Source: Candidatus Latescibacterota bacterium
Lineage (GTDB): Bacteria; Latescibacterota; UBA2968; UBA8231
Length of the DNA: 64,000 nt
Assembly (NCBI GenBank): GCA_965261395.1
Contig: OZ253462.1
Location: 1,632,001-1,696,000 of the forward strand
Reading direction: 5' to 3'
Below, piece after piece: positions 3,993 through 28,767 of the stretch; the first letter of the stretch is position 1, and every line of letters starts with the position of its first letter. A program made the translations under genes and the position numbers. The notes beneath the pieces were generated by a model. That model was not told where the DNA came from. It made no database searches and saw only the letters and a program-made list of their open reading frames with translations.

Positions 3993-4111
3993 AAGATCAT
4001 ATCCTCGCCCAAAAGCACGTTGCGCGCTCCTTCAATTGGCAGCGCTCCTAATTTTCGTAACTCCTTGAGTTTGAATAAACAATCTCACTCTCTAGCTGTC
4101 AACTTGACGCC

Positions 4112-4140
4112 TTGACGGCAAAATTCTTTTGCCGTATGCT
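4112..4140 (+). promoter_or_regulatory. Sigma70-type promoter with an internal perfect inverted repeat
   Basis: TTGACG (4112-4117), 17 nt, TATGCT (4135-4140). ACGGCAAAA-TTC-TTTTGCCGT at 4115-4135 overlaps it. Confidence 0.6.
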
Positions 4141-4148
4141 GCCGCTTT

Positions 4149-7146: not shown

Positions 7147-8489
7147 TCGAGGAGCTTGAACGCGTCCGGCCAATGCTCAATCACCGCGCCGTCTGCGCTC
7201 AGCCACACGGCGATCACGTCGAAGCGGCAGACCGTATCGGCCGCGGCGCGGTATTGGATATAGTGCTGGGCGGCCCGCGTCAGACGCTGCCGCTTGGCGC
7301 GATCCACCCTTTGTTCGGGCCGGGACGCGCGCTGGCTGGCCTTTACCTCGACAAAGACCAACTCGCCCCTCTCTTCGGCCACCAAGTCGATCTCGCCCCC
7401 AGCGGCGCGATAGCGGCGCGCCCGGATCCGATAGCCCCGTTCTTCCAGATAAGTCTCGGCTTCCGCTTCACCCCGCCGCCCGGTGTCTCCCAGCTTGTCG
7501 CGCTGCTCCCGATAGGCTCCTCTCAGGGCCGCTAGCTCGTCGGCCGTTAACTCGGCGGCGGCCTCTTTGACCAACTGTCCCAACCTGTCTAGCTCGGCAA
7601 GGTTCGCGCAGTCGTATATGCCCTCCTCAAAACGGAGGAACAGTTCCGAACGTGGCTCGGCGACTAGCGCGGCCACCGGGCCGAAACTGCGGCGGTGCAG
7701 CGGGCAAGGGCCATGGGCATTAAGCGCGGCTAAGTGCGCGGCACTGCCGTAGCCCTTGTGCGCGGCAAACCCGTATTCGGGATAGCGGATGTCGCATTCG
7801 CACATCAGACGGTCGCGATGTACTTTGGCCACGATCGAGGCCGCGGCAATCGACAACGAGCGGGCGTCTCCGTCAATAATGGCTTGTTCGGGATAGGGAC
7901 TGCGCGCCGGCAGGTGACCGTCAATCAGCACCCGGTCGGGTGGAGTGTGCAAATTCTCCAACGCCAAGCGCATGGCCTTGAGCGAAGCCTGCAGGATGTT
8001 CAACCTGTCAATCTCGTCAGCCTCGACCTGCCCTATCCCCACGGCTAGAGCCTGGGCCATGATCTCTTCGTACAGGACTTCGCGCTGGGTCCGCGACAGC
8101 TTCTTGGAATCGTCGATCTTGGCGATGACACAGTCCGGCGACAAGACGACGGCGGCGGCCACCACGGGCCCCGCCAAGCAGCCGCGCCCGGCCTCATCGA
8201 CGCCAGCCACCCGACTCACTCCCTGTGCCCAGAGATGCCGTTCAAAGTGCAGCAGCCGCTCGCGCCGCTGGGTCTCCGCCTGCTCCCGCGTATCGCGCCG
8301 CCGACGCTCGACCACCAAGCGCCGGACGCCGACGCGGCGATCCTTTTCGAGCAAGGCCCAGCCCGGATCGCCGCTTTCCCACTCCGCCACTTGTGCGCGT
8401 ATCTGGGCGATCGTCATTTCGGAGAGCTCGACCGCGGCGTCCCCTTCGCAGGAACGGTTCATACCGGCAGACGTCTCATCTATTGACAT
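7143..8489 (-). CDS. rnhB: Ribonuclease HII fused to a C-terminal YraN (UPF0102) domain; true start may be downstream (e.g. 8417)
   Basis: GVDEAGRG, DDSKK, AASIVAKVHRD, HKGYG, HRRSF; then GRRGE..A..YL..RGY, GEIDLVA, LVFVEVK, RFDV in one frame. Confidence 0.92.
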   Translation of the reverse strand: MSIDETSAGMNRSCEGDAAVELSEMTIAQIRAQVAEWESGDPGWALLEKDRRVGVRRLVVERRRRDTREQAETQRRERLLHFERHLWAQGVSRVAGVDEAGRGCLAGPVVAAAVVLSPDCVIAKIDDSKKLSRTQREVLYEEIMAQALAVGIGQVEADEIDRLNILQASLKAMRLALENLHTPPDRVLIDGHLPARSPYPEQAIIDGDARSLSIAAASIVAKVHRDRLMCECDIRYPEYGFAAHKGYGSAAHLAALNAHGPCPLHRRSFGPVAALVAEPRSELFLRFEEGIYDCANLAELDRLGQLVKEAAAELTADELAALRGAYREQRDKLGDTGRRGEAEAETYLEERGYRIRARRYRAAGGEIDLVAEERGELVFVEVKASQRASRPEQRVDRAKRQRLTRAAQHYIQYRAAADTVCRFDVIAVWLSADGAVIEHWPDAFKLLD

Positions 8490-8510
8490 TAGGTATCGAC
8501 CTCGTATATT
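8483..8510 (+). promoter_or_regulatory. Putative sigma70 promoter of the 8540 gene
   Basis: TTGACA (8483-8488), 16 nt, TATATT (8505-8510); GAGGAG RBS precedes the ATG at 8540. Confidence 0.5.
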
Positions 8511-8539
8511 TGCGAAAAGCCACCAAGAGGAGCCTTAAC

Positions 8540-9121
8540 ATGAAGCGCTACACGGCGTTAGTTGCCTGCTTGTGCCTCGTTCTGCAGCCCGTCATGGCCC
8601 TCGCCGAGACGGAATCGGATATCGTTGGGGCAGACACCCGACTCTACCTAGCCGATGGCAGCTTGGTGGAAGGCAATCTGATCGAAAAGGCCCAAGATCT
8701 GGTCATCCTGCGCGTCAACGACAAGATCTTCACTTTCGACAAAACCGAAATCGACAAGATCATCACCCTCGAATCGCTGGGCGGGGGTGCCCAAACGATC
8801 TCGGTGACCGAGTTCCCCTATATCAGTTTTCTCGGGGGATCCCTTGCCTTTAGCCTGCTCTCTTGGCTGCAATTCGACCGCGCTTCCGACAACGAAGCCG
8901 AAGCGGCCCTCAACCGCGAACACGGCCAGGCAGCTCGCGCCCAAAAGCTCGACGATAAAGCCGATCGCGCCCGCCTCTACGGTTGGTCCACAACCGTGCT
9001 CGCCGCCGGCAGCTTCGGGATCGCCCTAATCCCGCGCAAAACCACCCGCCGCGTCTTTCCCGAACTCAGTTTCCGCGACGGCGAGCCGCGCATCGGCGTA
9101 TCCTACGTCTATTCGTTCTGA
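8540..9121 (+). CDS. Exported/membrane hypothetical protein
   Basis: RBS plus signal peptide [22 protein letters not shown]; small beta domain ([11 protein letters not shown]) and two hydrophobic segments. Confidence 0.75.
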
Positions 9122-9573
9122 GAGCCTTCCGCACCCCTCAGGTGATGCACCAAAGCCTCTAGCCCGAGCACGTAGCTAAAACTGCCAAAACCCGCGATTT
9201 GCCCCAAGCAAACGGGCGCGATGACCGAGTGCTGGCGAAACGCTTCCCGGGCGTGGACATTGGACAGATGTACCTCAACGGTCGGCAACCCCTTGGCCGC
9301 CACGGCGTCGCGCAGGGCAAGGCTATAGTGGGTGAAGGCCCCTGGATTGAACAACAGGCCCTGCTCTTGGGATTGGTGCAGAGCGTCGATTAGTGCGCCC
9401 TCGCAATTGGATTGGTGGCAGCGCACCTGCACCCCGAGCCGCTGCGCGTGGTCGGCGATCAGCGCGTTGATCGCGGCCAAGGTCTCCCGACCATATACCT
9501 CGGGCTCGCGCGTTCCCAGCAAGTTGAGATTGGGTCCGTGTAGGACTAGGATGCTAGTCAAGTTGACCTCCAC
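9109..9573 (-). CDS. aroQ: Type II 3-dehydroquinate dehydratase
   Basis: [40 protein letters not shown]. Confidence 0.97.
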
Positions 9574-10435
9574 CGTTTCGCGCTACCACGCAGATCCACG
9601 CCTCTTTTGCCAAGATGGTATCGACCTCTAATGTAGCTTCTGTGACCCAGCGGCAAAAAGCCGCTTCTTCCCGCGCCAGCAAACCCGAAAACGCGATCCG
9701 TCCATCCGCTGCCAACAAGCCGCGCAAAGGGGTCAAAAGGGGTCGCAGCACGTGGCTTTGGATATTGGCCAAAACCAAGTCAAAGGACCTTTCCGCGACT
9801 GTCTCAACCCCCCCCAACCGCACCTCAACCTGCTCAGAGCCGATGCGGTTGTGCGCCAAGTTTTCTCGCGCATTGGCCACGGCCTGCTCGTCGATATCCA
9901 CGGCGAGTACCGGCCCGGCCCCCAGCAGCGCGGCGGCAATGCTGAGAATGCCGCTGCCGGTCCCCAAGTCCAGACAACGCGCCCCGGGGCGCAGATAGCT
10001 CTCCAGCGCCTGCAAGCAGAGCTGGGTCGATTCGTGCGCACCCGTGCCAAAGGCCATTTTGGGATCTATGCTCACGGCGATCTGGCCCTCGGCCATCTCG
10101 ACCGGAATCCACGAAGGATGGACGACGATCCGCTCGGTGGCCCACACCGCCGCAAAGAACCGCCGCCACTCGACCTCCCAATCCTGTTCCTCCACGCATT
10201 CGGTGTCTATTGGTGGCATCAAACCAAGCGCGGCGAGCCTATGCGTCAGCTCGCGCCGCACCCCAGCCAAATCGCACGTCGGCTCGGCCGCAAAGTACGC
10301 GCTCAACCGCGTTTGCTCCCCTGCTTCCTCGGCCTGCAGACCGCAGCTACCCAACTCGTACGCCCACGCGCTCACGTCCTCGGCGCAGGCCGCAGGCACC
10401 GCTAGCCGCAAGCAGTGCCAAGCCCGCTTATTCAC
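9554..10435 (-). CDS. prmA: Ribosomal protein L11 methyltransferase
   Basis: [49 protein letters not shown] start at 10435 overlaps the mrp stop. Confidence 0.93.
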
Positions 10436-11201
10436 TGGCCTCCAAGCGGCGCAGCTCGGCGACGAGCCCCTCGCCGATTGCGGCGAAAAGGGGGTCCGGC
10501 TCGGCCCGTCCTTCATCTCCGCTCTGGCGGATTGCAGCCGAGAGAGGCAGCGCCCCAAAAAAGGGCAACCCCAACCGCTCCGCCGCCACAGCCCCGCCGC
10601 CACAGCCGAAGATCTCGTGGCGTTGATCGCATTGGCTGCACAAGTAGTAGCTCATGTTTTCGACGATCCCAAGGACGTCCACCTCGACCTTGGAAAACAT
10701 GGCAATGCCCCGCTCCACATCCTCCAGCGCCACGCTCTGCGGAGTGGTCACAATCAAGGCACCGGACAGGACTACGGCTTGGCTCAAGGTGAGCGGCACA
10801 TCGCCGGTGCCGGGCGGCAGATCGATCAACAAATAGTCGAGCGGCCCCCATTCTACTTGGTTCAAAAACTGTTGCAACGCTCGCGCCAACAGCGGCCCGC
10901 GCCAGACCACGGGCGCGTCCTCACCCGCGATAAAACCAATCGACATCAGGGCGACCCCCGCTTTGTACACCGGGCGCATGGTGCCATCCAGCCCGGTTGC
11001 AGGCTGCTGTCTGACACCCATCATCAAGGGAATGCTCGGGCCGTAGATGTCGGCGTCGAGCAGGCCGACGCGAGCTCCTTGGGCCGCCAGATTTACGGCC
11101 AAGTTGATACTTACAGTTGATTTGCCCACGCCGCCTTTGGCACTGGCAATGGCGACGGTATGGCGCACTTGGGCTAAGGGACCGGTTCGGGGAACGGACA
11201 A
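10428..11201 (-). CDS. mrp: Mrp/ApbC (NBP35) family P-loop Fe-S carrier ATPase
   Basis: SAKGGVGKST, DADIYGPS, WRGP, DLPPGTGD, VTTPQ, ENMSYYLCSQC. Confidence 0.93.
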   Translation of the reverse strand: MSVPRTGPLAQVRHTVAIASAKGGVGKSTVSINLAVNLAAQGARVGLLDADIYGPSIPLMMGVRQQPATGLDGTMRPVYKAGVALMSIGFIAGEDAPVVWRGPLLARALQQFLNQVEWGPLDYLLIDLPPGTGDVPLTLSQAVVLSGALIVTTPQSVALEDVERGIAMFSKVEVDVLGIVENMSYYLCSQCDQRHEIFGCGGGAVAAERLGLPFFGALPLSAAIRQSGDEGRAEPDPLFAAIGEGLVAELRRLEASE

Positions 11202-11213
11202 ATGTACCTGCTC

Positions 11214-12353
11214 TTAGGAGTGGAAGGCTTTGCGCATTTTGGCCAAGAAGCTGTCGCCCTCTTTGGCGACGCGCTCTTTTTCGAGCTCGGCTAGCTCGGT
11301 GAAAAGTTCGCGCTCTCGTCTATTAAGGCCCTCGGGAGTCCACAAGACGACTTGGACTAGCTGGTCGCCGACCCCGCGGCCGTTGACGTCCGGGATGCCT
11401 CGGCCGCCCATGCGGAAGACACGCCCAGATTGGGTGCCAGCGGGGATCTTCAACATGGCCCTGCCGGACAAGGTCGGAACTTCTACCTCCGTGCCTAGGG
11501 CGGCTTGGCCAAAACCCAAGGGCAATTGGTAGATCACGTGGTTGCCGTCGCGAGTGAAATAGTCGTGCTCTTTTTCTTCTATAAAGACCAAGCAATCCCC
11601 GGACGGCCCACCGCGCGGCCCGACTTCGCCTTGGCCACGCAATGGAATGTAGTTACCCTCTTGGACGCCGGCGGGAATCCGCACCGTCAGGGTCGTTTGG
11701 CCGCGCTCGCGGCCCTCGCCTCGGCACTCTGGGCAGGGATTGGACACAATGTGACCCTCCCCTTCGCAGGTCGGACACGTCACCACAGTCATCGACGGCC
11801 CAAAGAGGGTGCGCGCCATCTGTTGCACTTGGCCCTGCCCGCCGCAAGTGCCGCAGGCTTTGCGGCCCGCTCCACTGGCCGCGCCGGTACCCTCGCAGCT
11901 TTTGCAGCGCTGCAAGCGCGTCAGCGCGATGTTCTTTTCCACGCCCGTGGCGATCTCCTCTAGGGTCAAGGCCACCTTAATCTTCAAGTCGCGACCTCTT
12001 GGCTTCTCCCCCCCCCGCGACCGCCGACCACCGCCGAAAAAGCTCTCAAAAATATCGCCGAAAACGTCTTGAAAATCGCCAGCGTGCGAAAAATCCGACC
12101 ACTGAAAGCCACCGCCGCTGAATTTGCCCTCAACTCCAGCGTGGCCAAAGCGGTCGTACGCGGCCTTCTTCTCTGGATCTGAAAGCACCTCGTATGCTTC
12201 GGATGCCTCCTTGAATTGCTCTTCGGCCGCGGCGTCACCGGGATTGCGATCGGGATGGTACTTCAGCGCCTTCTTGCGGTAGGCTCCTTTGATCGCGCTT
12301 TCGCTGGCACCCCGCTCGACGCCCAGTACTTCGTAGTAGTCCCTTTTGGCCAT
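11214..12353 (-). CDS. dnaJ: Chaperone DnaJ
   Basis: [13 protein letters not shown] motif, G/F-rich region, four CxxCxGxG repeats. Confidence 0.98.
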
Positions 12354-12361
12354 TCTGCTCC

Positions 12362-13015
12362 TCAGCTCTCCGCACTCGCCCTGCTGACGACGACGCGCGC
12401 GTAACGGACCACCTTATCGTTGAGTTTGTAGCCCTTCTCCATCTCCTCAATGATCGTGCCTGGGGCGTGCTCGTCGTCTGGGACTTCGGCTAGGGCCTCG
12501 TGGACTTCGGGGTCAAAGGGCTGTCCCACCGACTCGATCTCGGCTAGCCCATAGCCTTTGAGCACATCGTTGAATTGGCCGCAGATCAACTCGACGCCCT
12601 GCTTGAGCAACTCGGCTTCTTGGGTCTCCTGATGGAGGGCGCGGCGCAAGTTGTCCAAGATGGGCGCAACTTGCAACAAGACATCACGCAAGGTCTCATC
12701 CCGCGTTTCCGCGCGCATCCGCACCGTGCGCTTGCGATAGTTATCCAACTCGGCGACCGCCCGCACATAGCGGTCGTAATTAGCCGCTGCCTCGGCGCGT
12801 GCAGCCTCGAGCTCGGCTAGCCCATCGGCCTCAGGCTCCGCTGCTGCTTCCTGTGATTCCGCTGCTTCCTGCGATTCCACCGCCACTTCTTCTTGCTGCG
12901 ACGCTGCCGCTTCTTGTTCGCATGACTCCGACACTTTCTCCTGCGGCTCGACGGCACTCTCCGTGCTCGTCTCGTCGTCCACTGCGACGCGGTCTTGAGT
13001 TTCGCGCTCGCTCAT
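12362..13015 (-). CDS. grpE: Nucleotide exchange factor GrpE
   Basis: [34 protein letters not shown]. Confidence 0.97.
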
Positions 13016-13059
13016 CGACGCTCCTTACTCTTACTGGGAAAGATTGGAACAAAAACTCG

Positions 13060-14094
13060 TTAGCAGATCAGATCAGCCGCTCGGGAGGCCGCGCAATTGA
13101 CCAAGTTCACCAAAGACCTGTAAGGCATGCGCGTCGGGCCGATTACGCCGATCACGCCGACCGCGCCTTTGGCCCCGGCGACCTCGTAGCTGGCCGTTAC
13201 CATGCTGCACCGCTCCATCGCCCGCGGCCGGTGCTCGGAACCAATGGTGATAACCACGCCACGACGCTCGCTCATAAGCTGGGCGAGGAGGTCCTTTTTC
13301 TCCACCAAATCGACCAAACCGGCCACTTCGCTCGGATCGTCAAATTCGGGCTTTAGGCAGAGATTGCGAGTCCCCGAAACGTGGAGATCGGCACCGCGCG
13401 TAGTGGCCAAGCCTTCGATCTGCCGCACGACGGCTTCTATAACCGGCCGTGAGACTGGCCCCAGCTCGATCATTCGCTCCTCGACCGCGCGTTGGATTTC
13501 AGCCATCGTCAGCCCGTGCAAGCGCTCGTTAAAAAGCCGGCTCAGGACCTCTAACTCGCGCTGCGACACCGCGCAATTTACTTCGACCATCAAGCTCTTT
13601 GTCAGGCCCCCACGCATGGTGACGATGAGCAACAGGCGACGCTCCCCCAAGTGCCAAAGTTCCAGCTTGTGAAAGATGCCTTGATTAAAGCGCGGGGCCA
13701 AAACCAGCCCTAATTGGTTCGACAAATCGCCGATGGTTCTCGCCAATTGATGCAGGATCTCCTCGTAATTGCCCTCCTGTTGTGCAGCTTCTAGCTGCTG
13801 CCGCAGAGCGATCTCAGCCTCGTCTAGGCCAGCGTCTGCCGTCGCCATGCAGCGCTGCACGTAGAATCGGTAGCCCTTTTCAGAGGGAATGCGGCCTGCC
13901 GAGACATGGGGCTGGGATACGTAGCCCTTTTCCTCTAGGCAGGCTAGAGTGTTGCGTATGGTAGCCGAACTGACGCCCAGATCCTCGTGCTGGATCAACG
14001 TCTGCGAACCAACCGGGACGCTTTGGGCAACGTGGACTTTGACCAAAGCAAGGAGAACTTGGATTTCGCGTTTGGAAAGTGGGCTAGTGGCCAT
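13060..14094 (-). CDS. hrcA: Heat-inducible transcription repressor HrcA
   Basis: PVGS, VSSATIRN, QPHVSAGRIPSEKGYRFYV, GVIGPTRMPY. Start taken at MATSP (14094). Confidence 0.95.
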   Translation of the reverse strand: MATSPLSKREIQVLLALVKVHVAQSVPVGSQTLIQHEDLGVSSATIRNTLACLEEKGYVSQPHVSAGRIPSEKGYRFYVQRCMATADAGLDEAEIALRQQLEAAQQEGNYEEILHQLARTIGDLSNQLGLVLAPRFNQGIFHKLELWHLGERRLLLIVTMRGGLTKSLMVEVNCAVSQRELEVLSRLFNERLHGLTMAEIQRAVEERMIELGPVSRPVIEAVVRQIEGLATTRGADLHVSGTRNLCLKPEFDDPSEVAGLVDLVEKKDLLAQLMSERRGVVITIGSEHRPRAMERCSMVTASYEVAGAKGAVGVIGVIGPTRMPYRSLVNLVNCAASRAADLIC

Positions 14095-14150
14095 GGCCGG
14101 GAAGCATCTCAAGCGGCATAAACGCCAGATAAATACTGAAGCTTTGAGAA

Positions 14151-14178
14151 ATAATAAAAGCCGCCGATTCCTTGTCAA
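14151..14178 (-). promoter_or_regulatory. Putative sigma70 promoter for the hrcA operon
   Basis: Minus strand TTGACA (14178-14173), 16 nt, TATTAT (14156-14151). Confidence 0.55.
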
Positions 14179-14197
14179 GGTTCGCTTACCAGCTTGC

Positions 14198-14226
14198 TTG
14201 ACAGCCAATTTACAGGATCGTACTAT
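14198..14226 (+). promoter_or_regulatory. Putative sigma70 promoter for glnA
   Basis: TTGACA (14198-14203), 17 nt, TACTAT (14221-14226). Confidence 0.65.
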
Positions 14227-14288
14227 TAAAGCTTCATTTTTGTCTCAAACCACCCTAAAGCATTATTCGACGCGAGAAAGGAATTCTC

Positions 14289-15764
14289 ATGGCCAAAGCC
14301 AAGGCTAAAGCCAAACCGAAAGCCAAAGCCAAAACGAAGTCATCCGGGCCCAGCGCGGTCGATGCCGCGCTGGCCTTAGCACGCAACCAACAAGCGCAGA
14401 TGGTCGATTTCAAGTTCGTCGATCTGCCCGGCACCTGGCAGCACTTCACCATGCCCATCGCCGGCCTCGAACCCGATCTGTTCGACGATGGCCTCGGCTT
14501 CGATGGCTCCTCCATCCGCGGATGGAAGGCGATCGACGAATCCGACATGCTCGTCGTGCCCGATCCGACCACCGCGGTGATGGATCCGTTCACCGCGGTG
14601 CCGACCCTGTCGCTGATCTGCTCGATTGAAGACCCCATCACCCGCCAGCCCTATGGCCGCGATCCCCGCGGCGTTGCCCAGCGTGCCCAAGCCTACTTGC
14701 TGCGCACCCAGCTGGCCGACACGGCGTTTTTCGGGCCGGAAGCAGAGTTTTTCATCTTCGACAACATCCAGTTCGACCAGCAACCCCATCAGGCCTTCTA
14801 TGCGATTGACTCCGCCGAAGGACGCTGGAACAGCGGTGCCGACGAAGGACCCAACCTCGGCTACAAGCCCGACTACAAGGGCGGCTACTTCCCCGTGCCG
14901 CCCACCGACTCCCAGCAAGACCTCCGCACCGAGATGGTGCAGACGATGCTCGACTGCGGCATCGACGTGGAGATTCACCACCACGAGGTGGGCACCGCCG
15001 GCCAGGGCGAAATCGACATCCGCTTTTGTCCGCTGCTTATTTGCGGCGACCGGATGATGATGTATAAATACATCGTCAAGAATGTGGCACGTCAGCACGG
15101 CAAGACGGCTACGTTCATGCCCAAGCCGCTGTTTGAGGACAACGGCACGGGCATGCACACCCACCAGAGTCTGTGGCAGGGCGACCAGCCGCTGTTTGCT
15201 GGCAGCGGCTATGCGGGTATCAGCCAGATGGCGCTGCACTACATCGGCGGACTGTTGCACCACGCACCGGCGCTGTTGGCGTTTACCAATCCGACGACCA
15301 ACTCCTACAAGCGGCTGGTGCCCGGCTATGAGGCCCCAGTGAACTTGGCGTATTCGCAACGCAATCGCAGTGCGTCGGTGCGCATTCCGATGTATTCGCC
15401 CAGTCCCAAGAGCAAGCGGGTGGAGTTCCGCTGCCCCGACCCGTCGTGCAACATCTACTTGGCGCTGTCGGCGATGCTGATGGCGGGGTTGGACGGCATT
15501 GAGCAGCAGATGGATCCGGGTGAACCGCTGGACAAGAATCTGTATGATCTGTCGGCGGAGGAGCGGGCGGGGGTGCCGCAGACGGCCGGCTCATTGGAGG
15601 CGTCGTTGGATCACTTGGAGCAGGATCGGGACTTTCTGTTGCAGGGCGATGTGTTCTCCGACGACCTGATCGACGCGTGGATCGACTACAAGCGCACCGA
15701 GGAGGTCGATGCCCTCCGACTGCGTCCGCATCCCTATGAGTTCTCACTCTACTACGACGTGTAA
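14289..15764 (+). CDS. glnA: Type I glutamine synthetase
   Basis: [54 protein letters not shown], adenylylation loop KNLYDL. Confidence 0.98.
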
Positions 15765-22544: not shown

Positions 22545-22920
22545 GCCATGCACGATCCGACCGAAGGCGGGGTCGCCACGGGCCTGTGGGAATTGGCCAC
22601 CGCATCCGCTGTGGGCGCTGAAATCGACTACCACGCGCTGCCCATCGATCCGGCCACAGCGCACCTCTGCGCGGCCTTTGAACTCGATCCCCTCGGCGTA
22701 ATTTCTTCGGGTGCGCTGCTGATCGGCTGCACGACCGATTCCACCGACGCCATACTCGCGGCCCTGCACGACGCCAACATAGCCGCGGCCCACATCGGCA
22801 CGGTGCGCCCGCCTTCCTTTGGACTTCAGCTACGCCGCGACGGCCACCTGACCCCATTGCCCACTTTCCCGACAGACGAAATCACGCGCCTCTTTGCCTA
22901 ATCGCGGTCTTGCCGGTTAT
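22545..22920 (+). pseudogene. Direct repeat copy 2: 5'-truncated duplicate of the AIR-synthase-like gene
   Basis: MHDPTEGG...DEITRLFA, near-identical to the last 117 aa of 18283-19296. Confidence 0.93.
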
Positions 22921-22972
22921 CTTGACATCGGCAACGAGAGCGGAAACGCGGTATGGAATAGGAGGGAATGCA

Positions 22973-25900
22973 ATGTATAGGGAGCCTTGCAGGAGATCGG
23001 GTCGAGCAGTGGCCATCATGGCGCTGGCACTTGGGATGGCGATGTGCAGCCTTTCCCACGCCGATCTCCCTCCCCCAGCCGTGGTCTGGTGGTCGGCACC
23101 GGTCCTGCCCGGTGAGATCGTCGTCCTGCACGGGGGAGACTGGGGCGACGATCCCAAAGTGGAGATAGCATCAATCCGCAACTCCGAACCGGGAGAAGCT
23201 GCTACAGGGCGTACGCCCGTCATGGGTGATGTGCGCGTCCTTGCCCCCATCCACCGCACAGAGACCGGTCTCAGCTTCGTCCTGCCGGAGACGCCGGAAG
23301 GCCTGCACATGTGTCGGGTCGTTTTAGGCGGGGGTGGGGCTTCAGCACCTTTCGTCCTGAACGAACCGACCTCGTGGTGGGTCCAAGGCGATCGCGGACG
23401 AGCGGCATCGCCCGGCGGATGGCTGCGTGTCTTCGGTCGCTGCCTCTCCTTCGACGCAAAGGCGCGGATGGCCCTGAAGCGGGGCAACGACCACATCGAA
23501 CTGCCCCTTCAGCAACAGGACTCGTGGTCGGTGACGGCTTCCCTGCCGACGAAGCTCGCGTCAGGGGCATACGAGGTCTTCGTCCACAATGGCCACGGCG
23601 GCCCGGCTGGTTGGCGCCGCGTGGGAACCATGGCCATCGCCGTGCACGAGGAGGTCTGGGAGAATCGGGTCTTCGACGTGGTCGATTTCGGTGCCGTGCC
23701 CAACGACCGGGCCGCCGACACCCAAGCCCTGCGCGCGGCCTTGGCGGCGGCTGGCCAGAACGGCGGCGGCATCGTCCACCTGCCGCGAGGCCGCTACCAG
23801 ATTCACGGCACCTTGGAGATCCCCCCGTTCACTTTGCTGCGGGGCGAGTCCCTAGAGCTGAGCCAGCTCTATTGGCCGGACACGCAGAAGCCACCCGCGG
23901 CATTGATCAAAGGCAGCCATGACTTCGGGGTGGAAGACCTGTTCATCACGTCCGGGAACTACCTGAACGGCATCGTCTCCGGTCGCCTAGCCGACCCCGC
24001 GAGCGGGCGGGTCATCATTCGCCGGGTCCGGATGCGCCTCTTGCGGGACCAGTACGTCAGCGCCGAGGAACGCCTCCGTCGCCACAGCCTGCCGGGCCAT
24101 GCCCTAGACCTTGAAGGCGAGTTCGTCCGCGTCACCGACTGCGACATCGCGACCAGTGGCCGCGGCGGGAGCTTCGCGCTGCGCGTCCGCTACGGACAGG
24201 TCGCCGGCAACCGGTTTATCAACGGCGGCAACTCCATCTCTGGATCGGAGAACCTGATCTTCGAGGACAACACCGTGACCGGCGGCGGCGTCAGCGTAGC
24301 CCCTTTGCCGCTCTACCAGCGCAACATCTACTTCGCCGGCAACCGCCTAGAGCGGAACTTCGCCCACGACCGCGAGGCCATGACCCTCGACGGCAGGACC
24401 CACACCTACCAAGGTGCCGTGACGAACGTGGCCGGCAACCGCCTAGTGCTCGCCGATGAGGGCATGGCCTGGCGCAACGGCGCCGATCACTGGATCAACG
24501 GCGGCATCATGGTCTTCGCTGGCCGGGGCGCGGGCCAGCTACGGCGCATCCGCCGCATCGACGGCAGGACCGTCGAAGTGGATCGGCCCTGGACGATCGA
24601 GCCCGACGACAGCTCCCTGATCGCGATCTCCTACTTCCGCGAGCGCCACCTGTTCGTCGGCAACCGCATCGAGGACGCCACCATCGCCCTGCAACTCCAC
24701 GGCTCTCTCATCGAAGGAATCGTGGCGGGCAATACGAGCACCCGGGCCGGCGGGTTCCACAGCTTCGGCATGTGGAAGGGCGGCGGGCCCGAGCCCTCCT
24801 GGTATGTCCAGTATTTCGACGACGAGATCCTCGAGGGGAACGCCTACCGCGGCCCCATGAACGAGATCCCGTCGCTCGACTCGCATCTGGCCATCCAGGA
24901 CCGCGGGAACTCGCAGACGGACTATTCCTTCACCCGCACCTGTCTGGCTCGGCGCTGCATTCTGCGCAACAATGCCCGCATCGAGGTGCTCGGCAACGGC
25001 ATCGCCGACAACGTCCTCATCGAAAACTGCTTGGTCGAGAACGCCGACATCGGGCTGTACGTGGATCCGCGCGCCCAAGGCGTGATCCTGCGGGGCAACC
25101 GCTTCGACAACGTCCTCCAACCCATGACCGGCACCATCGAGCGCGCCGTCACCCATCCGGCCGATCTCGTGCTCGCCGCCCTGTCCGGCGCCCAAGCACA
25201 GCTCGGCGCAGGGGCACCCGCCGCCTGGGCCCGAATCCAGAGCGAGCTCGAAACGCTTGCCGTTGAGGGTGACCTAGCGTCCAAGGCCACAGCGGCAAAA
25301 GCTAGGGCCTTCCTCGCAGAAGCGGTCGCTGCACTGGCGTCCAGCGGTTCAGAGGAATACACCGCCGACTTGATGCGGACCCTGCTGGGCATCGACGTCG
25401 CGGTTGATACAGACGCCCTCGCCGCCGCCGCGACGACGGGCAAGGCGACCTCCGTGCCCGTGCAGGTATCCGTCCCCTCATGGTCGCTACCGGTGTCGGT
25501 CGCGCTGCACGTTGATCCGTTTCCCGGGTGGACAGTGGCGTCGAGCCCGACCCAAGCGATCGAGCCGGGCGGAACCGCCCATTTTGCCCTGCAAACCGCC
25601 GGCCCCAAGCGACCGGCCAGCCCCTTCGACCTGCCCTTTACCTGCGACGTGCACGGCGACGGCTGGCGGTTGTCATTCACCGACCACGCTGGGCCGGCAC
25701 GGCTCACCGTCACCGACTGGCTCGTCGTGGGGCCCTTCGAGAACGAGAGCGGCGAGGTCATCGACACGACCGTGCATCCCCCAGAGCTGAAGCTGGACGT
25801 GACCGCCCGCTACGAAACCCGGGACGGCGTGAAGGGCTGGAAGCCGATCCGCAGTACCGCCGACGGGAGGCTCGATCTGACCGCCCATTTTACGGACGCG

Positions 25901-26263
25901 GATCGGGCCGTGGCCTACGCCGCAGCCTGCGTGCGCGCGGCCCGGGACATTCCGGCGATGGTCACCTATGCCGGCATGACCTCCACGGACGGGGTCATGC
26001 TCTACGTCAACGGGCAGCGAATCGGCACGCGCTGGCGCTTCAACCAGTGGGGCCCGACGCTGCTGCGACAGGGAGACAACATCGTCTTCGCCGTGCTCTC
26101 CAACCTCGACCGCGACTGGCGGGCAGGCATGCAGGTGGAACCGATGGCTCCCCTCGCCCCTGGCGAGCTCATCGCCGTCCCTGCCGACAAGCTCTCCGAC
26201 GTGGCGGCCCTGAAGAGTGCAGTCGAAGCGGTACCGGAAGGCCGGGCCCGTGGACTCGACTGA
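22973..26263 (+). CDS. Large exported right-handed beta-helix (pectate-lyase/GH28-like) protein with accessory beta-sandwich domains
   Basis: AGGAGG RBS, signal peptide, FDVVDFGAVPND..DTQALRAAL...GGIVHLPRGRY N-cap, repeated Asn-ladder segments, WLVVGPF module. Confidence 0.8.
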   Translation: MYREPCRRSGRAVAIMALALGMAMCSLSHADLPPPAVVWWSAPVLPGEIVVLHGGDWGDDPKVEIASIRNSEPGEAATGRTPVMGDVRVLAPIHRTETGLSFVLPETPEGLHMCRVVLGGGGASAPFVLNEPTSWWVQGDRGRAASPGGWLRVFGRCLSFDAKARMALKRGNDHIELPLQQQDSWSVTASLPTKLASGAYEVFVHNGHGGPAGWRRVGTMAIAVHEEVWENRVFDVVDFGAVPNDRAADTQALRAALAAAGQNGGGIVHLPRGRYQIHGTLEIPPFTLLRGESLELSQLYWPDTQKPPAALIKGSHDFGVEDLFITSGNYLNGIVSGRLADPASGRVIIRRVRMRLLRDQYVSAEERLRRHSLPGHALDLEGEFVRVTDCDIATSGRGGSFALRVRYGQVAGNRFINGGNSISGSENLIFEDNTVTGGGVSVAPLPLYQRNIYFAGNRLERNFAHDREAMTLDGRTHTYQGAVTNVAGNRLVLADEGMAWRNGADHWINGGIMVFAGRGAGQLRRIRRIDGRTVEVDRPWTIEPDDSSLIAISYFRERHLFVGNRIEDATIALQLHGSLIEGIVAGNTSTRAGGFHSFGMWKGGGPEPSWYVQYFDDEILEGNAYRGPMNEIPSLDSHLAIQDRGNSQTDYSFTRTCLARRCILRNNARIEVLGNGIADNVLIENCLVENADIGLYVDPRAQGVILRGNRFDNVLQPMTGTIERAVTHPADLVLAALSGAQAQLGAGAPAAWARIQSELETLAVEGDLASKATAAKARAFLAEAVAALASSGSEEYTADLMRTLLGIDVAVDTDALAAAATTGKATSVPVQVSVPSWSLPVSVALHVDPFPGWTVASSPTQAIEPGGTAHFALQTAGPKRPASPFDLPFTCDVHGDGWRLSFTDHAGPARLTVTDWLVVGPFENESGEVIDTTVHPPELKLDVTARYETRDGVKGWKPIRSTADGRLDLTAHFTDADRAVAYAAACVRAARDIPAMVTYAGMTSTDGVMLYVNGQRIGTRWRFNQWGPTLLRQGDNIVFAVLSNLDRDWRAGMQVEPMAPLAPGELIAVPADKLSDVAALKSAVEAVPEGRARGLD

Positions 26264-26362: not shown

Positions 26363-27031
26363 ATGATGATGAAATTCACTCTTTTACTTTTGACCTTATA
26401 CCTGGGCACATCACCTGTTTTTGCACAGGAAACGCAAGTGGATTCTACGCGGAGCGACCGACCGACATTTTCGCTGACGCCTACCTGAGTGGGCTGACCT
26501 GGCGAAGGCGCACCACTTCGGGGAAGTGGCATTCATACGAAATTTGCACTTTCGGGGCGGTATGTACATACGTCGATGGACCGTCCGCAGTGGCGGTTTA
26601 CCGCCAATTACAGACTGCATCAACGCCTGCAAGTTGGGATCGAGCTGAATCCAAAAGCAGAAGAGGTAGGACCTCTTGCGACCCTGTTTTTGCTAACCGA
26701 GACAGAGACGCGTCCGGCACTCTTTTTGGGCACGAGTTCAGATCGAATTGGATCGCCGGCGGGCGAGCAGTCTTACTTCGCGACTGTAAGTAAATATATA
26801 CCTCGGTTGCGCACTTCTTTTTACGGCAGTTTGAATTATTCGGAATGGGATGGGAAGTTCAATATTCCCTTTGGCGTGGGGGTTGAATTGGGCAAAGGCT
26901 TTTCATTGCGACCGATGTATGATGGCGACCGGAGGCATGTGATGCTGAATTATTTCGCCACGCAATACGGTGTCAGTTTGATGTATGTGTGGCTCGAAAC
27001 CATGGGTATTTCGTTTTCTCTTGGATTTTAG
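26363..27031 (+). CDS. Candidate selenoprotein: signal peptide, UxxU motif, beta-barrel-like domain (two in-frame TGA codons)
   Basis: MMMKFTLLLLTLYLGTSPVFA-QETQ...LTPT-TGA(26486)-V-G-TGA(26495)-PGEGAPL... in frame with the 26576-27031 ORF, which ends ISFSLGF. Confidence 0.7.
26513..26529 (+). promoter_or_regulatory. SECIS-like hairpin
   Basis: CCACTTC-GGG-GAAGTGG. The G-containing loop lies 22 nt after the second TGA and 31 nt after the first. Confidence 0.55.
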
Positions 27032-27043: not shown

Positions 27044-27733
27044 ATGCGTTGTTGCAATTTTTTATTTTTAATTGTTTTGGCAAGTTCGGTTACGCTTATA
27101 GCTGAAACTCAGATTCCCGATAAGGCACTTTGTAGTGTCTGTGCATTAAAGGGCGGCGAGACAGAGTTGGAAAAGGTCAAGGCCCATTCGGAACACGATG
27201 GCAAAGCGTACTATTTTTGTTCTGAAAACTGCAAAATAGAATTTGACTCAGATCCCTTGGCTTATTTACCACCGGTATTTCCACGACCTGCACCAGCCTT
27301 TGTCGTTGAAATGCTGGAGGGCGGGGACCAGGCGTTGGGGGATTTGCAGGGCAAAGTTGTGCTCGTAGATTTTTGGGCAACATGGTGCAAACCTTGTCTT
27401 GAGACAATGCCCCGGTTGCAAAAACTCTACAGCGCTTATTCCGATAAGAGTTTTGACGTTTTGGGTGTGTCTATAGATGAAGACGAAGACGAAGACCGGG
27501 TTAAGAAGATCAAAGAGATGGTGGACAAAATGGATATTTCTTATCCCATCTTTATAGACGCTAAACAGACGCCCGCTTGGTATCAGTTTAAGGTGAAAGC
27601 GATTCCTGCGATGTATCTTCTCGATGGAGAAAGTCAGATCGTCGCGCAGTGGACGGGAAAGATAGATTACGAGGAAGTGGAGCAGGAAGTCTTGCGACGG
27701 TTAAAAAAAAGGCTCCACGTTGAAGAGCCATGA
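27044..27733 (+). CDS. Exported YHS-domain plus TlpA/thioredoxin-like disulfide reductase
   Basis: GGAGG RBS, signal peptide, CSVC...YYFCSENCK..F..DP..Y (YHS), VLVDFWATWCKPC, IPAMYLLD. Confidence 0.9.
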   Translation: MRCCNFLFLIVLASSVTLIAETQIPDKALCSVCALKGGETELEKVKAHSEHDGKAYYFCSENCKIEFDSDPLAYLPPVFPRPAPAFVVEMLEGGDQALGDLQGKVVLVDFWATWCKPCLETMPRLQKLYSAYSDKSFDVLGVSIDEDEDEDRVKKIKEMVDKMDISYPIFIDAKQTPAWYQFKVKAIPAMYLLDGESQIVAQWTGKIDYEEVEQEVLRRLKKRLHVEEP

Positions 27734-27768
27734 GCGAGCTTTATCTTTCTGGAAACCCAATAAATCCC

Positions 27769-28767
27769 ATGACACAAATAGTCTCCACTGTCGACTTTGA
27801 CCGCGATGGCAAGCAAATCGGCTGGTTGCATGTGCCGCATTCGGTCACTCGCAGCGCCTACGGGGTACTGCCCATCCCCGTCGCCGTCATTCGCAATGGC
27901 CCCGGGCCGCAGGTCCTGCTGACAGCCGGCAACCACGGCGACGAGTACGAGGGCCAGGTGGTCCTGACGCGCTTGATCCAAGAGGTGCAGCCCGAGCAAA
28001 TCCGCGGCGGGCTTATCATCATACCGGCGCTGAATCAGCCAGCCGTGCTAGCGGCAGCGCGGGTCAGCCCGCTGGACGCAGGGAATCTGAACAGGGTCTT
28101 CCCGGGCGATCCCGGGGGCGGACCGACGTGGAAAATTGCGGACTATGTCGAACAGCATCTGCTGCCGCGGGTTGAAGTGGTGGCCGACTTCCACGGCGGC
28201 GGGGCCTCCCTGGACTACCGACCGCACGCCAGCACCCACTTCGGCCCCAACACGTCCTCTGAGCACAAGCGCCTAAGCCTGGATTTGGTTTCCAAGCTAG
28301 GTGTGCCGCACGTAATGGTTTTCGAGAACCGCACTGATAAGGGAGGGCTACCCGATGCCGCCATCCGGCAGGGCGTGATCTCTCTGGGCGGGGAATACGG
28401 TGGTACGGGGAGCGTATCGCGGTCCGGGGTAAAGCTGGTGCAACAGGCGGTTGACCGATTGCTGGCAGCCCTGGGGGTTAAGGGTACGCTGCCGGACGAC
28501 CTCGAGACGCCTCAGGTCCTCCACATCTTCGGCCCCGACGCGTACTCTTATGCACCGGAACCAGGCCTGTTCGATCCGGCCACCGATCTGGGTGACGAGG
28601 TGAGTGCCGGCGATCTGTGCGGTCAGGTCCTGTTTCCGGAGAATCCTTCGCGGCCCCCCGTGCCCGTCACTTTTCGAGGCGAGGGTACGGTGGTCTGCAA
28701 ACGGCACCTGGGCAGGGTGGAAGCCGGAGACTGCGTCGCCCACCTAGCAGCCCCTGTAAGCGACTGA
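27769..28767 (+). CDS. Succinylglutamate desuccinylase/aspartoacylase family (DoeB-like)
   Basis: GNHGDEYEG, NLNRVFPG, DFHGGG, GEYGG. Confidence 0.88.
   Translation: MTQIVSTVDFDRDGKQIGWLHVPHSVTRSAYGVLPIPVAVIRNGPGPQVLLTAGNHGDEYEGQVVLTRLIQEVQPEQIRGGLIIIPALNQPAVLAAARVSPLDAGNLNRVFPGDPGGGPTWKIADYVEQHLLPRVEVVADFHGGGASLDYRPHASTHFGPNTSSEHKRLSLDLVSKLGVPHVMVFENRTDKGGLPDAAIRQGVISLGGEYGGTGSVSRSGVKLVQQAVDRLLAALGVKGTLPDDLETPQVLHIFGPDAYSYAPEPGLFDPATDLGDEVSAGDLCGQVLFPENPSRPPVPVTFRGEGTVVCKRHLGRVEAGDCVAHLAAPVSD

What the first reader, a model, noticed from the sequence alone, without database searches (positions are those of the whole stretch)
26363..27031. Hidden UxxU selenoprotein candidate: exported beta-barrel-like protein with two in-frame TGA codons
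Seen: ATG 26363 opens a classic signal peptide (MKFTLLLLTLYLGTSPVFA|Q). The frame reads ...LTPT-TGA-GTG-GGC-TGA-CCT... and continues with no other stop into the called ORF 26576-27031. The two TGAs (codons 42 and 45) have exact CxxC spacing. A 7-bp hairpin with a G loop follows at a SECIS-compatible distance. The called ORF alone has amphipathic strands and a terminal Phe (ISFSLGF) but no signal peptide, so the upstream extension supplies what it lacks. Known: bacterial Sec insertion uses UGA plus an immediately downstream stem-loop; UxxU motifs are rare and best known from thioredoxin-fold selenoprotein L. Inference: an envelope protein with an N-terminal diselenide or metal-binding site. I do not recognise it as a described family.
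Basis: partly seen in the sequence, partly recalled or inferred. Interest (0 to 1): 0.92.

Follow-up and report, generated by a model that had tools for sequence, protein, structure and literature searches.

The report
Outer-membrane barrel with two selenocysteines
A gene that public annotation cuts short encodes an exported outer-membrane barrel protein with two selenocysteines three residues apart; the family appears undescribed and almost always sits beside a gene for a metal-binding, thioredoxin-like protein.

Summary
Window 26363-27031 (+) is one gene: signal peptide, PT-U-V-G-U-PGEGAPLRGSG (TGA at 26486 and 26495), then a 12-stranded outer-membrane beta-barrel. Both TGAs are kept in every assessable homologue: 27 of 27 intact copies in 168 genomes of the phylum, and 39 of 40 species loci (the 40th is cut by a contig end). 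Variation around them is mostly at third codon positions. Distant homologues (28-31% identity) have Cys at both positions (PTCAGCAGEA). A 7-bp hairpin at 26513-26529, with a GGG/GUG loop, is paired in 98.6% of cells and has two compensatory pairs. It lies 31 and 22 nt after the two UGAs, within the published bSECIS range. The genome has selA, selB, one tRNA-Sec and a Sec-containing selD, and it uses TGA as a normal stop. Pfam, NCBIfam and the 2026 catalogue of 119 prokaryotic selenoprotein families do not cover this family. Public gene calls truncate it to about 151 aa or read the TGAs as Trp. A YHS + TlpA-like thioredoxin gene follows in 33 of 40 loci, and Cys forms carry the same three parts in other fusions. 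Function is inferred, not shown: most likely a periplasmic diselenolate site for a thiophilic metal or for redox exchange.

The parts
26363..27031 (+). Complete selenoprotein gene (222 codons plus TAG stop). Public gene calls keep only 26576-27031.
   Evidence: Full-length homologues with exactly 2 in-frame TGA. Coding signature across the TGAs.
26363..26425 (+). Signal peptide (residues 1-21, MMMKFTLLLLTLYLGTSPVFA, cleavage inferred before QE).
   Evidence: Read from the sequence. Modelled as helix 2-21. A hydrophobic N-terminus is present in the homologues. No signal-peptide predictor was run, so this is inferred.
26486..26488 (+). UGA 1, Sec42.
   Evidence: TGA in all 42 distinct homologous segments. 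Cys codon in distant homologues.
26495..26497 (+). UGA 2, Sec45.
   Evidence: Same calls as for UGA 1.
26513..26529 (+). SECIS-like hairpin: 7-bp stem and 3-nt loop (GGG here, GUG in others). It overlaps the codons for P-L-R-G-S-G.
   Evidence: -8.7 kcal/mol. (98.6% of 287 cells paired; pairs 36-48 and 39-45 compensatory; 0 of 500 shuffles reach the covariation score). RNAalifold finds the same helix.
26543..27028 (+). 12-stranded outer-membrane beta-barrel (residues 61-222) ending in ...ISFSLGF.
   Evidence: AlphaFold2 model: block pLDDT about 68-86 over the barrel. VIA-align: FapF Z 16.7, KdgM Z 15.6, COG4313 channel Z 15.4. Foldseek agrees.
27044..27733 (+). Partner gene, 12 nt downstream. 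Exported protein with a YHS/TRASH-type 4-Cys domain (C30, C33, C59, C63) and a TlpA/ResA-like thioredoxin domain (W-C115-K-P-C118).
   Evidence: Pfam YHS plus AhpC-TSA/Redoxin/Thioredoxin. NCBIfam ResA/TlpA-like, below cut-off. Directly downstream in 33 of 40 loci. The named Cys residues are invariant in 22 sequences.

Best explanation
Window 26363-27031 is one gene for a selenoprotein with two selenocysteines. The product has a cleavable signal peptide and a roughly 40-residue flexible N-terminal segment carrying PT-U-x-G-U-PGEGAPLRGSG. A 12-stranded outer-membrane beta-barrel with a C-terminal Phe follows. Both UGA codons, 9 nt apart, are read as Sec by SelB/tRNA-Sec. They are directed by one short hairpin in the coding sequence (26513-26529) that starts 15 nt after UGA2. 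This part is shown by comparative evidence. Because both ends of outer-membrane barrels face the periplasm, the U-x-x-U segment should lie in the periplasm or in the barrel lumen; this is inferred. The gene forms a conserved two-gene unit with an exported YHS-domain/TlpA-like thioredoxin. Cys-type relatives carry the same three parts (YHS, CxxC-barrel, TlpA-like thioredoxin) in other fusions. My preferred mechanism is inferred and I put it at about 45%. In it, the two selenolates form a high-affinity site for a thiophilic metal, with Cu(I) the first candidate. The metal is exchanged with the YHS domain at the periplasmic mouth of a small channel, and the TlpA-like domain keeps the pair reduced in the oxidising envelope. 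The main functional rival (about 30%) is a pure redox relay, in which TlpA reduces a diselenide or selenenyl-sulfide.
For: TGA conservation:
- 27 of 27 intact copies among 168 genomes of the phylum have exactly two in-frame TGAs.
- 39 of 40 species loci from genome contigs show both TGAs; the 40th starts inside the gene.
- No TGC, TGT or TGG was seen at either position within this clade.

Frame:
- In 42 distinct 105-nt segments, variable columns by codon position are 14 of 35, 14 of 35 and 33 of 35.
- Pairwise codon differences are 10463 synonymous to 6420 non-synonymous in frame, against 1358 to 15251 and 990 to 15763 in the shifted frames.

Sec/Cys pairing:
- Distant homologues P0155, P0161, P0179, P0165, P0151, P0149 and P0230 have PTCAGCAGEA aligned to PTUVGUPGEGA.
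- TGC/TGT codons were read in the DNA of 8 of the 9 loci L091-L099; L097 showed no motif.

SECIS:
- 98.6% of cells paired. Pair 36-48 is GC 21, AU 10, GU 7, other 3. Pair 39-45 is CG 36, UA 4, other 1.
- The covariation score is 0.168 against a shuffled mean of 0.104 (0 of 500 shuffles reach it). Slid controls give 31-68% paired.
- The changes lie at synonymous sites.
- The loop is 31 nt after UGA1 and 22 nt after UGA2. The loop starts with G and the fold is -8.7 kcal/mol.
- These values fit the published bSECIS constraints (section 5 of PMC13188914).

Sec machinery and genetic code:
- SelA 478.6 bits and a SelB wing domain.
- One tRNA-Sec.
- selD at 374.9 bits, itself with one in-frame TGA.
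- TGA ends 1549 of 3511 genome ORFs of at least 300 aa.
- The orthologue in L019 ends on a third TGA.

Fold.

Module:
- A YHS-thioredoxin gene is directly downstream in 33 of 40 loci and 1.8 kb away in one more.
- It is the only conserved neighbour.
- In Cys-form loci L093-L096 the gene order is a YHS-fused CxxC barrel followed by a TlpA-like thioredoxin. In L091/L092 and L098/L099 the YHS protein is separate.

RNA libraries: contigs from metatranscriptome libraries of two studies bridge both TGAs. X18 record 23 covers 26475-26668 with 0 differences, and X16 record 7 covers 26378-26593 with 1 difference.
Against: - There is no experimental evidence of selenium in the protein.
- The hairpin is short, and five of its seven pairs are fixed by invariant amino acids. 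Only two pairs can covary, and related sequences inflate shuffle tests.
- A 75-nt fold is no more stable than shuffles and prefers another pairing.
- The stem starts 24 nt after UGA1. From memory, the E. coli fdhF spacing is about 11 nt. One hairpin serving both codons is therefore an assumption, although the Group 4 hydrogenase paper raises the same idea for UxxU motifs (PMC13582414, passages seen).
- SelA is almost universal in this class: 131 of 168 genomes have it, against 32 of 33 carriers. Co-occurrence therefore does not discriminate.
- Two carriers gave no SelA hit: G033 (81% complete) and G171 (completeness not given).
- The motif region has pLDDT below 50, so its position relative to the barrel is unknown.
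- RNA-library contigs show neither translation nor, strictly, transcription.
- The metal role rests only on the YHS annotation and on selenolate chemistry.
Confidence: 0.85

Rival explanations
1. The gene is real and read through, but one or both UGAs are decoded as Cys (through a SECIS-dependent tRNA-ReC/SelC*-type tRNA) or as another near-cognate residue. The protein would then be CxxC or mixed, not UxxU.
For: Passages of PMC13582414 report that genomes with UxxU hydrogenases often carry tRNA-ReC. They also warn that bioinformatics cannot separate Sec from Cys decoding. Cys forms of this family exist.
Against: ARAGORN and the Rfam tRNA-Sec model find one true tRNA-Sec in G000. All other hits except one coincide with ordinary tRNAs; the exception is a weak 20-bit hit at E 0.6. 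If Cys were the product, TGC/TGT should appear at least sometimes among 42 distinct sequences, and none does.
Confidence: 0.06
2. The TGAs are true stops. Either this is a decayed gene, or it is two products: a 41-aa exported peptide plus the 151-aa ORF from ATG 26576.
For: That is how almost all public gene calls read it. Of the 120 best hits listed, 118 are 130-167 aa long. Some copies in the genus really are decaying: G001 has an extra TAA, G009 an extra TAG, and G021 and G027 are fragments.
Against: The stretch between UGA2 and ATG 26576 is strongly conserved as protein, with third-position variation. It supplies the first barrel strand, residues 61-68. The 151-aa product would lack both a signal peptide and strand 1. 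Neither TGA is ever replaced by TAA or TAG. Decaying copies add other stops and break the hairpin (L009).
Confidence: 0.02
3. Same gene, different job. The U-x-x-U pair is a redox centre rather than a metal site: a diselenide or selenenyl-sulfide at the outer membrane, reduced by the TlpA-like partner. It would detoxify peroxides or oxidised chalcogen species, or pass electrons to a substrate moving through the channel.
For: The partner has a classical thiol-disulfide reductase active site, WCxPC, invariant in 22 sequences. Most catalogued selenoproteins are redox proteins with UxxC, CxxU or UxxU motifs (section 7 of PMC13188914).
Against: This does not explain why a YHS/TRASH-type 4-Cys domain is always part of the module, fused either to the thioredoxin or to the barrel. 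From memory, diselenides have very low potentials and are hard for thioredoxin-like proteins to reduce.
Confidence: 0.3

Closest known systems
[quoted passage not shown]
   Same: Two Sec residues with CxxC spacing. They are decoded from UGAs 9 nt apart with a downstream coding-region stem-loop. Cys/Cys forms occur in relatives.
   Different: Those are soluble thioredoxin-fold, HMA-like or zinc-ribbon proteins. Here the motif sits in a flexible N-terminal tail of an outer-membrane barrel. There is no Pfam or NCBIfam match to any of them.
12-stranded outer-membrane barrels: FapF, KdgM/NanC, the COG4313 channel, autotransporter beta-domains
   Same: The model superposes on FapF (Z 16.7, rmsd 2.4, 172 residues), KdgM (Z 15.6) and COG4313 (Z 15.4). 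It has a signal peptide and a C-terminal Phe. From memory, FapF and COG4313 have N-terminal segments that plug the pore.
   Different: Sequence identity is 7-16% and no family model matches. None of them has a Sec or Cys pair. This barrel is very compact, about 160 residues.
Catalogued outer-membrane selenoproteins: GSU2204/MtrB-PioB family barrel and the FCYXU-type TonB-dependent receptor (Table 1 of PMC13188914)
   Same: Sec in an outer-membrane beta-barrel protein.
   Different: Those have one Sec in much larger barrels of unrelated families. There was no PF11854 or NF041027/NF049945 hit.
PcoB/CopB copper outer-membrane protein
   Same: A small barrel preceded by a flexible N-terminal tail that, from memory, binds metal. 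The idea of a metal site tethered at the periplasmic mouth is the same.
   Different: The structural match is only middling (7pge Z 9.0, rmsd 4.1). There is no sequence family match. From memory, PcoB's tail is rich in Met and His, not Sec or Cys.
TlpA/ResA-type periplasmic reductases with their metal-centre substrates (TlpA-Sco1/CoxB; the Scs copper-stress system)
   Same: An exported WCxPC thioredoxin is encoded beside a protein with a Cys-type pair that must stay reduced. The Scs review title and abstract link such systems to copper (PMC10907172, search listing only).
   Different: Here the partner is fused to a YHS domain, the presumed substrate is an outer-membrane barrel, and the pair is Sec-Sec. 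All NCBIfam scores are far below the equivalog cut-offs.

Membership tests
Bacterial SelB/SECIS-dependent selenoprotein gene | In-frame UGA conserved in orthologues, with coding conservation on both sides | tested here: met
Bacterial SelB/SECIS-dependent selenoprotein gene | Cys at the aligned position in homologues | tested here: met
   PTCAGC in P0149, P0151, P0155, P0161, P0165, P0179 and P0230. Cys codons were read in the DNA of 8 of the 9 loci L091-L099; L097 showed no motif.
Bacterial SelB/SECIS-dependent selenoprotein gene | [quoted passage not shown] | tested here: met
   7 bp, GGG/GUG loop, 31 nt and 22 nt from the two UGAs, -8.7 kcal/mol. bSECISearch itself was not available.
Bacterial SelB/SECIS-dependent selenoprotein gene | selA, selB, selC and selD in the genome | tested here: met
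Bacterial SelB/SECIS-dependent selenoprotein gene | Selenium demonstrably incorporated at the UGA positions | not testable with these tools
   Needs 75Se labelling or mass spectrometry.
Outer-membrane beta-barrel protein (12-stranded class) | Signal peptide, an even number of amphipathic strands closing a barrel, and a C-terminal aromatic residue | tested here: met
   12 strands plus one 3-residue element over residues 61-221. Z 13-17 to 12-stranded barrels. Terminal F is invariant. The signal peptide was judged by eye only.
SelL / Prx-like UxxU thioredoxin-fold selenoproteins | UxxU placed at the thioredoxin-fold active site | tested here: not met
   No thioredoxin-family hit for this protein. 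The motif lies in a disordered N-terminal segment before a barrel.
Any selenoprotein family with an NCBIfam or Pfam model | Match to the family model | tested here: not met
   0 families at E up to 0.01 in Pfam and up to 0.1 in NCBIfam.
PcoB/CopB | Structural and sequence likeness to the PcoB barrel | tested here: inconclusive
   7pge Z 9.0, well below the top matches. No Pfam hit.
TlpA/ResA-like thiol-disulfide reductase (partner gene 27044-27733) | Exported thioredoxin fold with a WCxPC active site | tested here: met
   Pfam AhpC-TSA, Redoxin and Thioredoxin_8. W114, C115, P117 and C118 are invariant. NCBIfam ResA scores 97 bits against a cut-off of 170, so it is not an equivalog.

The most novel reading that the evidence does not exclude
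One 7-bp coding-region hairpin lets SelB insert selenocysteine at two UGA codons only 9 nt apart. This builds a periplasmic diselenolate (U-x-G-U) site tethered to a very small 12-stranded outer-membrane channel. Together with a YHS metal-binding domain and a TlpA-like reductase, it would form a previously unknown three-part envelope pathway. That pathway would move a thiophilic metal (Cu(I)-class), or a chalcogen species, across or at the outer membrane. In the whole close clade the pathway has become dependent on selenium, since no Cys reversion was seen.
Probability: 0.3. Interest if true: 0.85.

Novelty: new variant of a known kind. Interest (0 to 1): 0.72.

Why it matters
The finding adds a selenoprotein family that was not found in the sources checked. 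These were the 119-family catalogue of May 2026, Pfam and NCBIfam release 20.

- **Annotation.** The family is mis-annotated throughout the public gene calls seen, either truncated or read with Trp at the TGAs.
- **Rarity.** Double-Sec UxxU motifs are rare. This one sits on an outer-membrane barrel, a place where Sec is almost unknown.
- **A test case for SECIS.** The family offers a clean natural case for asking whether one bacterial SECIS can serve two neighbouring UGAs.
- **A new module.** The conserved triad of YHS domain, [C/U]xx[C/U]-barrel and TlpA-like thioredoxin points to an uncharacterised envelope system. Record titles name several mostly uncultured lineages as carriers, including Latescibacterota, Calditrichota, Poribacteria, KSB1 and Armatimonadota. 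Its substrate could be found with simple metal-binding and redox assays.
- **Method.** The closest Cys forms are only about 30% identical. Pipelines that depend on Cys homologues may therefore miss families like this one.

Tried and rejected
Alternative helix. The MFE of the 75-nt piece pairs GAGUGGGC, just after UGA1, with the 5' arm of the hairpin. On the 41-sequence alignment this helix is paired in 82.9% of cells against a shuffled mean of 82.4% (87 of 500 shuffles reach it). It is broken in about half the sequences at three pairs, so I rejected it. RNAalifold also drew two 3-bp mini-helices (columns 1-3/12-14 and 23-25/30-32). They are too short and show no clear compensatory support, so I left them open.

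'Trp homologues'. P0023 and P0060 have W at both positions. The L077 DNA, whose protein matches the N-terminal stretch of P0060 printed, has TGA at both places. I did not see P0023's DNA. P0130 (PACVGWPGEG) may be a CxxU form; I could not see its DNA either, so it stays unresolved.

Family and catalogue searches.
- Pfam and NCBIfam gave nothing for the barrel.
- Paper searches found no description.
- I read Table 1 of PMC13188914 in full.
- I read passages of PMC9312934 and PMC2398784.
- In BSepDB (PMC13326102) none of my six search terms occurred.
Candidate lists there, such as the GOS Dataset S2, may hold members that I could not see.

Other checks.
- No conserved neighbour other than the YHS-thioredoxin gene appeared in all-against-all clustering of ORFs from the 40 loci.
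- tRNA-ReC was not found. ARAGORN's 96-nt 'tRNA-Gly(acc)' at the genome end has a poor, largely unpaired structure, so I set it aside.
- The co-occurrence test with SelA is uninformative because SelA is near-universal in the class.
- RNA-library contigs show presence in RNA libraries only. Bins without cover mean nothing, and DNA carry-over cannot be excluded.
- One row of alignment A4 (L081) was given with wrong coordinates and is mis-framed. Ignore that row; the Cys/Sec alignment does not depend on it.
- L076 was missed by my motif pattern, so it is not in alignments A3 or. One search shows it has both TGAs and the hairpin.
- I dropped L009 and L018 from A3, and L009, L018, L021 and L050, because they carry extra stops or truncations.
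Full report
THE OBSERVATION. From ATG 26363 the + frame reads MMMKFTLLLLTLYLGTSPVFAQETQVDSTRSDRPTFSLTPT-TGA-V-G-TGA-PGEGAPLRGSG... It runs without another stop to TAG 27029-27031. The TGAs are codons 42 and 45 (26486-26488, 26495-26497). A mechanical ORF list gives only 26363-26488 (41 aa) and 26576-27031 (151 aa). The coordinates and the description are correct.

ARE THE TGAs CONSERVED AND IN A CODING FRAME? A six-frame search of 61 related genomes found 18 with a match. Ten genomes other than G000 had a full-length match holding exactly two in-frame TGAs and no other stop, down to 56% identity.
- With a profile, 33 of 168 genomes of the phylum matched. Of these, 27 are intact and hold exactly two TGAs. 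Two hold the two TGAs plus another stop (G001 with TAA, G009 with TAG). Four are fragments.
- A scan of one genome per species found 40 loci. Thirty-nine show TGA-x-x-TGA at the motif, and the last (L073) begins inside the gene at a contig end.
- The motif is PT-U-[V/S/T/M]-[G/A]-U-PGEG[A/G]PLRG[S/G]G. No TGC, TGT or TGG occurs at either position.
- In 42 distinct 105-nt segments around the motif, variable columns are 14 of 35, 14 of 35 and 33 of 35 for codon positions 1, 2 and 3.
- Pairwise codon differences are 10463 synonymous to 6420 non-synonymous in this frame. In the two shifted frames they are 1358 to 15251 and 990 to 15763.
- The stretch between UGA2 and the annotated ATG is among the best conserved parts of the protein.
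- Sequencing error is excluded by the number of independent assemblies.

CYS HOMOLOGUES. A profile search of 1.84 billion representatives gave 215 hits at E up to 0.001.
- Seven distant relatives (26-31% identity for the six full-length ones) cover the motif and have Cys at both places. PTCAGCAGEA aligns to PTUVGUPGEGA.
- In metagenome loci of this Cys type the codons are TGC/TGT in the DNA.
- This Sec/Cys correspondence at both positions is the classical signature of a selenoprotein family.
- Two closer 'full-length' database proteins (P0023, P0060) show W at both positions. The L077 DNA, whose protein matches the N-terminal stretch of P0060 printed, has TGA at both places. These W residues are therefore best read as a gene caller translating TGA as Trp. 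P0023's DNA was not seen.
- Of the 120 best database hits listed (675 hits in all), 118 are 130-167 aa, that is, truncated at the N-terminus. The family is mis-annotated throughout these public calls.

SECIS. I aligned 41 distinct sequences. Two copies with extra stops were left out, and L076 was missed by my pattern.
- The 7-bp helix is paired in 98.6% of 287 cells.
- Pair 36-48 is GC 21, AU 10, GU 7, other 3. Pair 39-45 is CG 36, UA 4, other 1. Both sit on synonymous sites of Pro/Ser and Leu/Gly codons.
- None of 500 shuffles reaches the covariation score (0.168 against 0.104). Sliding the partner gives 31-68% pairing.
- RNAalifold predicts the same helix. Alone it folds at -8.7 kcal/mol.
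- The loop is GGG or GUG. It lies 31 nt after UGA1 and 22 nt after UGA2.
- The published bacterial model asks for a 3-9 nt loop with G in its first two positions, a 4-16 bp stem, 16-37 nt spacing and an MFE of -7.5 kcal/mol or lower (PMC13188914, section 5 read). Both UGAs meet it with the one hairpin.

Caveats on the SECIS:
- Five of the seven pairs are fixed by invariant residues.
- Kinship inflates shuffle tests.
- The 75-nt fold is unremarkable and prefers another pairing. That alternative helix fails on the alignment.
- The decaying copy L009 has lost the pairing.

MACHINERY AND CODE. The genome (6.55 Mb, one contig) has:
- SelA at 478.6 bits and a SelB winged-helix domain;
- one tRNA-Sec(UCA) of 99 nt (70 bits with RF01852);
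- selD at 374.9 bits, itself holding one in-frame TGA. This is an internal sign that the organism reads some UGAs as Sec.

No second Sec-like tRNA was found. All RF01852 hits but one coincide with ordinary tRNAs, and the exception is a weak 20-bit hit at E 0.6. TGA is also the commonest stop of long ORFs, ending 1549 of 3511. The orthologue in L019 terminates on a third TGA, so a TGA-sense genetic code is excluded.

SelA is present in 32 of the 33 carriers but also in 131 of all 168 genomes, so this does not discriminate. Four of five carriers reached through other records also have it.

THE PROTEIN. An AlphaFold2 model built on 37 sequences has mean pLDDT 72.8 and pTM 0.70. It shows helix 2-21 (the signal peptide), a low-confidence segment holding the motif (residues 39-57 have pLDDT below 50), and 12 strands plus one 3-residue element from 61 to 221.
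- VIA-align against 48,161 chains ranks 12-stranded outer-membrane barrels first: FapF Z 16.7 (rmsd 2.4, 172 residues), KdgM Z 15.6, COG4313 channel Z 15.4. Autotransporter beta-domains and NanC score about 13, and PcoB 9.0. Foldseek agrees.
- The C-terminal F is invariant.
- The annotated 151-aa ORF would lack the signal peptide and the first strand.

THE MODULE. Twelve nucleotides downstream, 27044-27733 encodes an exported protein with two domains. One is a YHS domain with four invariant Cys: CxxC...CSxxC. The other is a TlpA/ResA-like thioredoxin domain with an invariant WCxPC.
- Its orthologue lies directly after the barrel gene in 33 of 40 loci and 1.8 kb away in one (L051).
- Two loci end at the contig edge (L053, L077), and four lack it (L075, L088-L090).
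- No other neighbour is conserved.
- In the Cys forms, L093-L096 encode one 411-417-aa protein with YHS domains, the PTCAGC motif and the barrel. It is followed at once by a 159-161-aa thioredoxin with WATWCxxC.
- In L091/L092 a separate 190-aa YHS protein precedes the barrel gene. In L098/L099 a YHS protein follows it.
- P0151 is named 'YHS domain-containing protein [Armatimonadota bacterium]' by its source.
- The same three parts in different fusions argue for a functional unit.

EXPRESSION. Contigs from four metatranscriptome libraries of two studies lie on the gene.
- X18 record 23 covers 26475-26668 with no difference, and X16 record 7 covers 26378-26593 with one. Both bridge the two TGAs.
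- Other contigs of higher depth match only the 42 nt 26494-26535. Their flanks read ...ACC TGA AGC GC, so they are homologues from other organisms.
- Contigs cannot prove transcription or translation.

HOW IT PROBABLY WORKS.
- Shown by comparison: one gene, two recoded UGAs, one conserved hairpin, and an outer-membrane barrel with an N-terminal [U/C]xx[U/C] tail, linked to YHS and TlpA-like domains.
- Inferred from the general topology of outer-membrane barrels (my knowledge): the tail is periplasmic or sits in the lumen, within reach of the exported partner.
- Inferred from annotation and chemistry: YHS domains are proposed transition-metal, probably copper, modules related to TRASH domains (abstract of PMC4626032 in the listing). 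Two selenolates with CxxC spacing would bind soft metals very tightly and stay deprotonated at neutral pH (my knowledge).

My preferred reading, at about 45%, is a metal hand-over site at a small channel, kept reduced by the TlpA-like domain. A pure redox relay I put at about 30%. Handling of sulfur or selenium species is possible (about 10%) but nothing speaks for it specifically.

IS IT KNOWN? Table 1 of the May 2026 review lists 119 prokaryotic selenoprotein families or subfamilies, nearly all with a domain identifier.
- I read the whole table and found no entry that fits.
- Its UxxU entries are the Prx-like oxidoreductase, NF041115 and the FmdB family. Its outer-membrane entries are the GSU2204/MtrB-PioB barrel and an FCYXU TonB-dependent receptor.
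- NCBIfam release 20 and Pfam give no hit.
- Two full-text searches and passages of three further papers turned up nothing.
- Supplementary lists could not be opened.
- I therefore treat it as a new selenoprotein family within a new, wider family of CxxC-tailed small barrels. The recoding mechanism itself is the known bacterial one, with the less common feature of two UGAs in front of one hairpin. PMC13582414 also raises that idea for UxxU hydrogenases (passages).

VERDICT. I put the selenoprotein call at about 0.9 and the outer-membrane barrel at about 0.9. The functional link to the YHS-thioredoxin partner I put at about 0.8, and a specific metal role at about 0.45. Record titles name Latescibacterota, Gemmatimonadota, Calditrichia, Poribacteria, Eisenbacteria, Krumholzibacteriia, KSB1 and others. 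Such labels are unreliable: the 'Gemmatimonadota' record of L061 appears to be the same genome as G102, which belongs to the window's own phylum. Both give the same SelA match at the same contig and coordinates.

Noticed in passing
G000:C1:167936-168859 (outside the window; locus L100): The genome's selD (TIGR00476, 374.9 bits) holds one in-frame TGA, so SelD is itself likely a selenoprotein here.
   Followed up: no
L009 (G001), L018/L050 (G009), L021 (G021), L020/L025 (G027): Within the window's own genus, 12 of 30 other genomes gave a match, three of them to the N-terminal ~30 residues only. Four of the rest look decayed. They show an extra TAA at the signal-peptide cleavage site with a broken hairpin, an extra TAG, or truncated or split pieces. 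This suggests ongoing loss.
   Followed up: partly
P0130 (209 aa, ENA metagenome protein): A relative at 36% identity reads PACVGWPGEG, with Cys at the first position and W at the second. If the W is a TGA read as Trp, this would be a CxxU intermediate between the Cys and Sec forms.
   Followed up: no
L091:261-617 and 685-1158; L092:36-392 and 460-933; L094:1934-2332; L096:1887-2339: In L091/L092, small exported proteins that are extremely rich in Cys (runs such as CCKGG...CACEAGCKCC) lie just upstream of the Cys-form operon, and further small Cys-containing ORFs lie upstream in L094 and L096. The four scanned (L091 and L094, L096) have no Pfam family. Their composition recalls metallothioneins, which would fit a metal theme.
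   Followed up: partly
window 26494-26535, RNA-library contigs of X15-X18: Contigs of 732-2925 nt with higher word depth (25-51) match only the 42 nt that encode U-PGEGAPLRGSG and the hairpin. Their upstream flank reads ...ACC TGA AGC GC. They are homologous genes of other organisms in the same libraries.
   Followed up: no
window 27730-28767: A DoeB-like (N-acetyl-diaminobutyrate deacetylase/AstE-AspA family) gene overlaps the stop of the YHS-thioredoxin gene by 4 nt (ATGA). It was found downstream (about 1.3 kb further on) in only 1 of the 40 loci, L052, so it is probably not part of the module.
   Followed up: partly
window 22910-26263: A large 1117-aa ORF upstream has pectate-lyase-like right-handed beta-helix hits (PF12708, PF13229). 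Among the 40 loci, only L052 keeps it next to the selenoprotein gene.
   Followed up: no
L061 (record titled Gemmatimonadota) compared with G102: The SelA match of the genome behind L061 has the same contig, coordinates and score as that of G102, a genome of the window's own phylum and class. Phylum labels in MAG record titles therefore disagree with the GTDB grouping.
   Followed up: no
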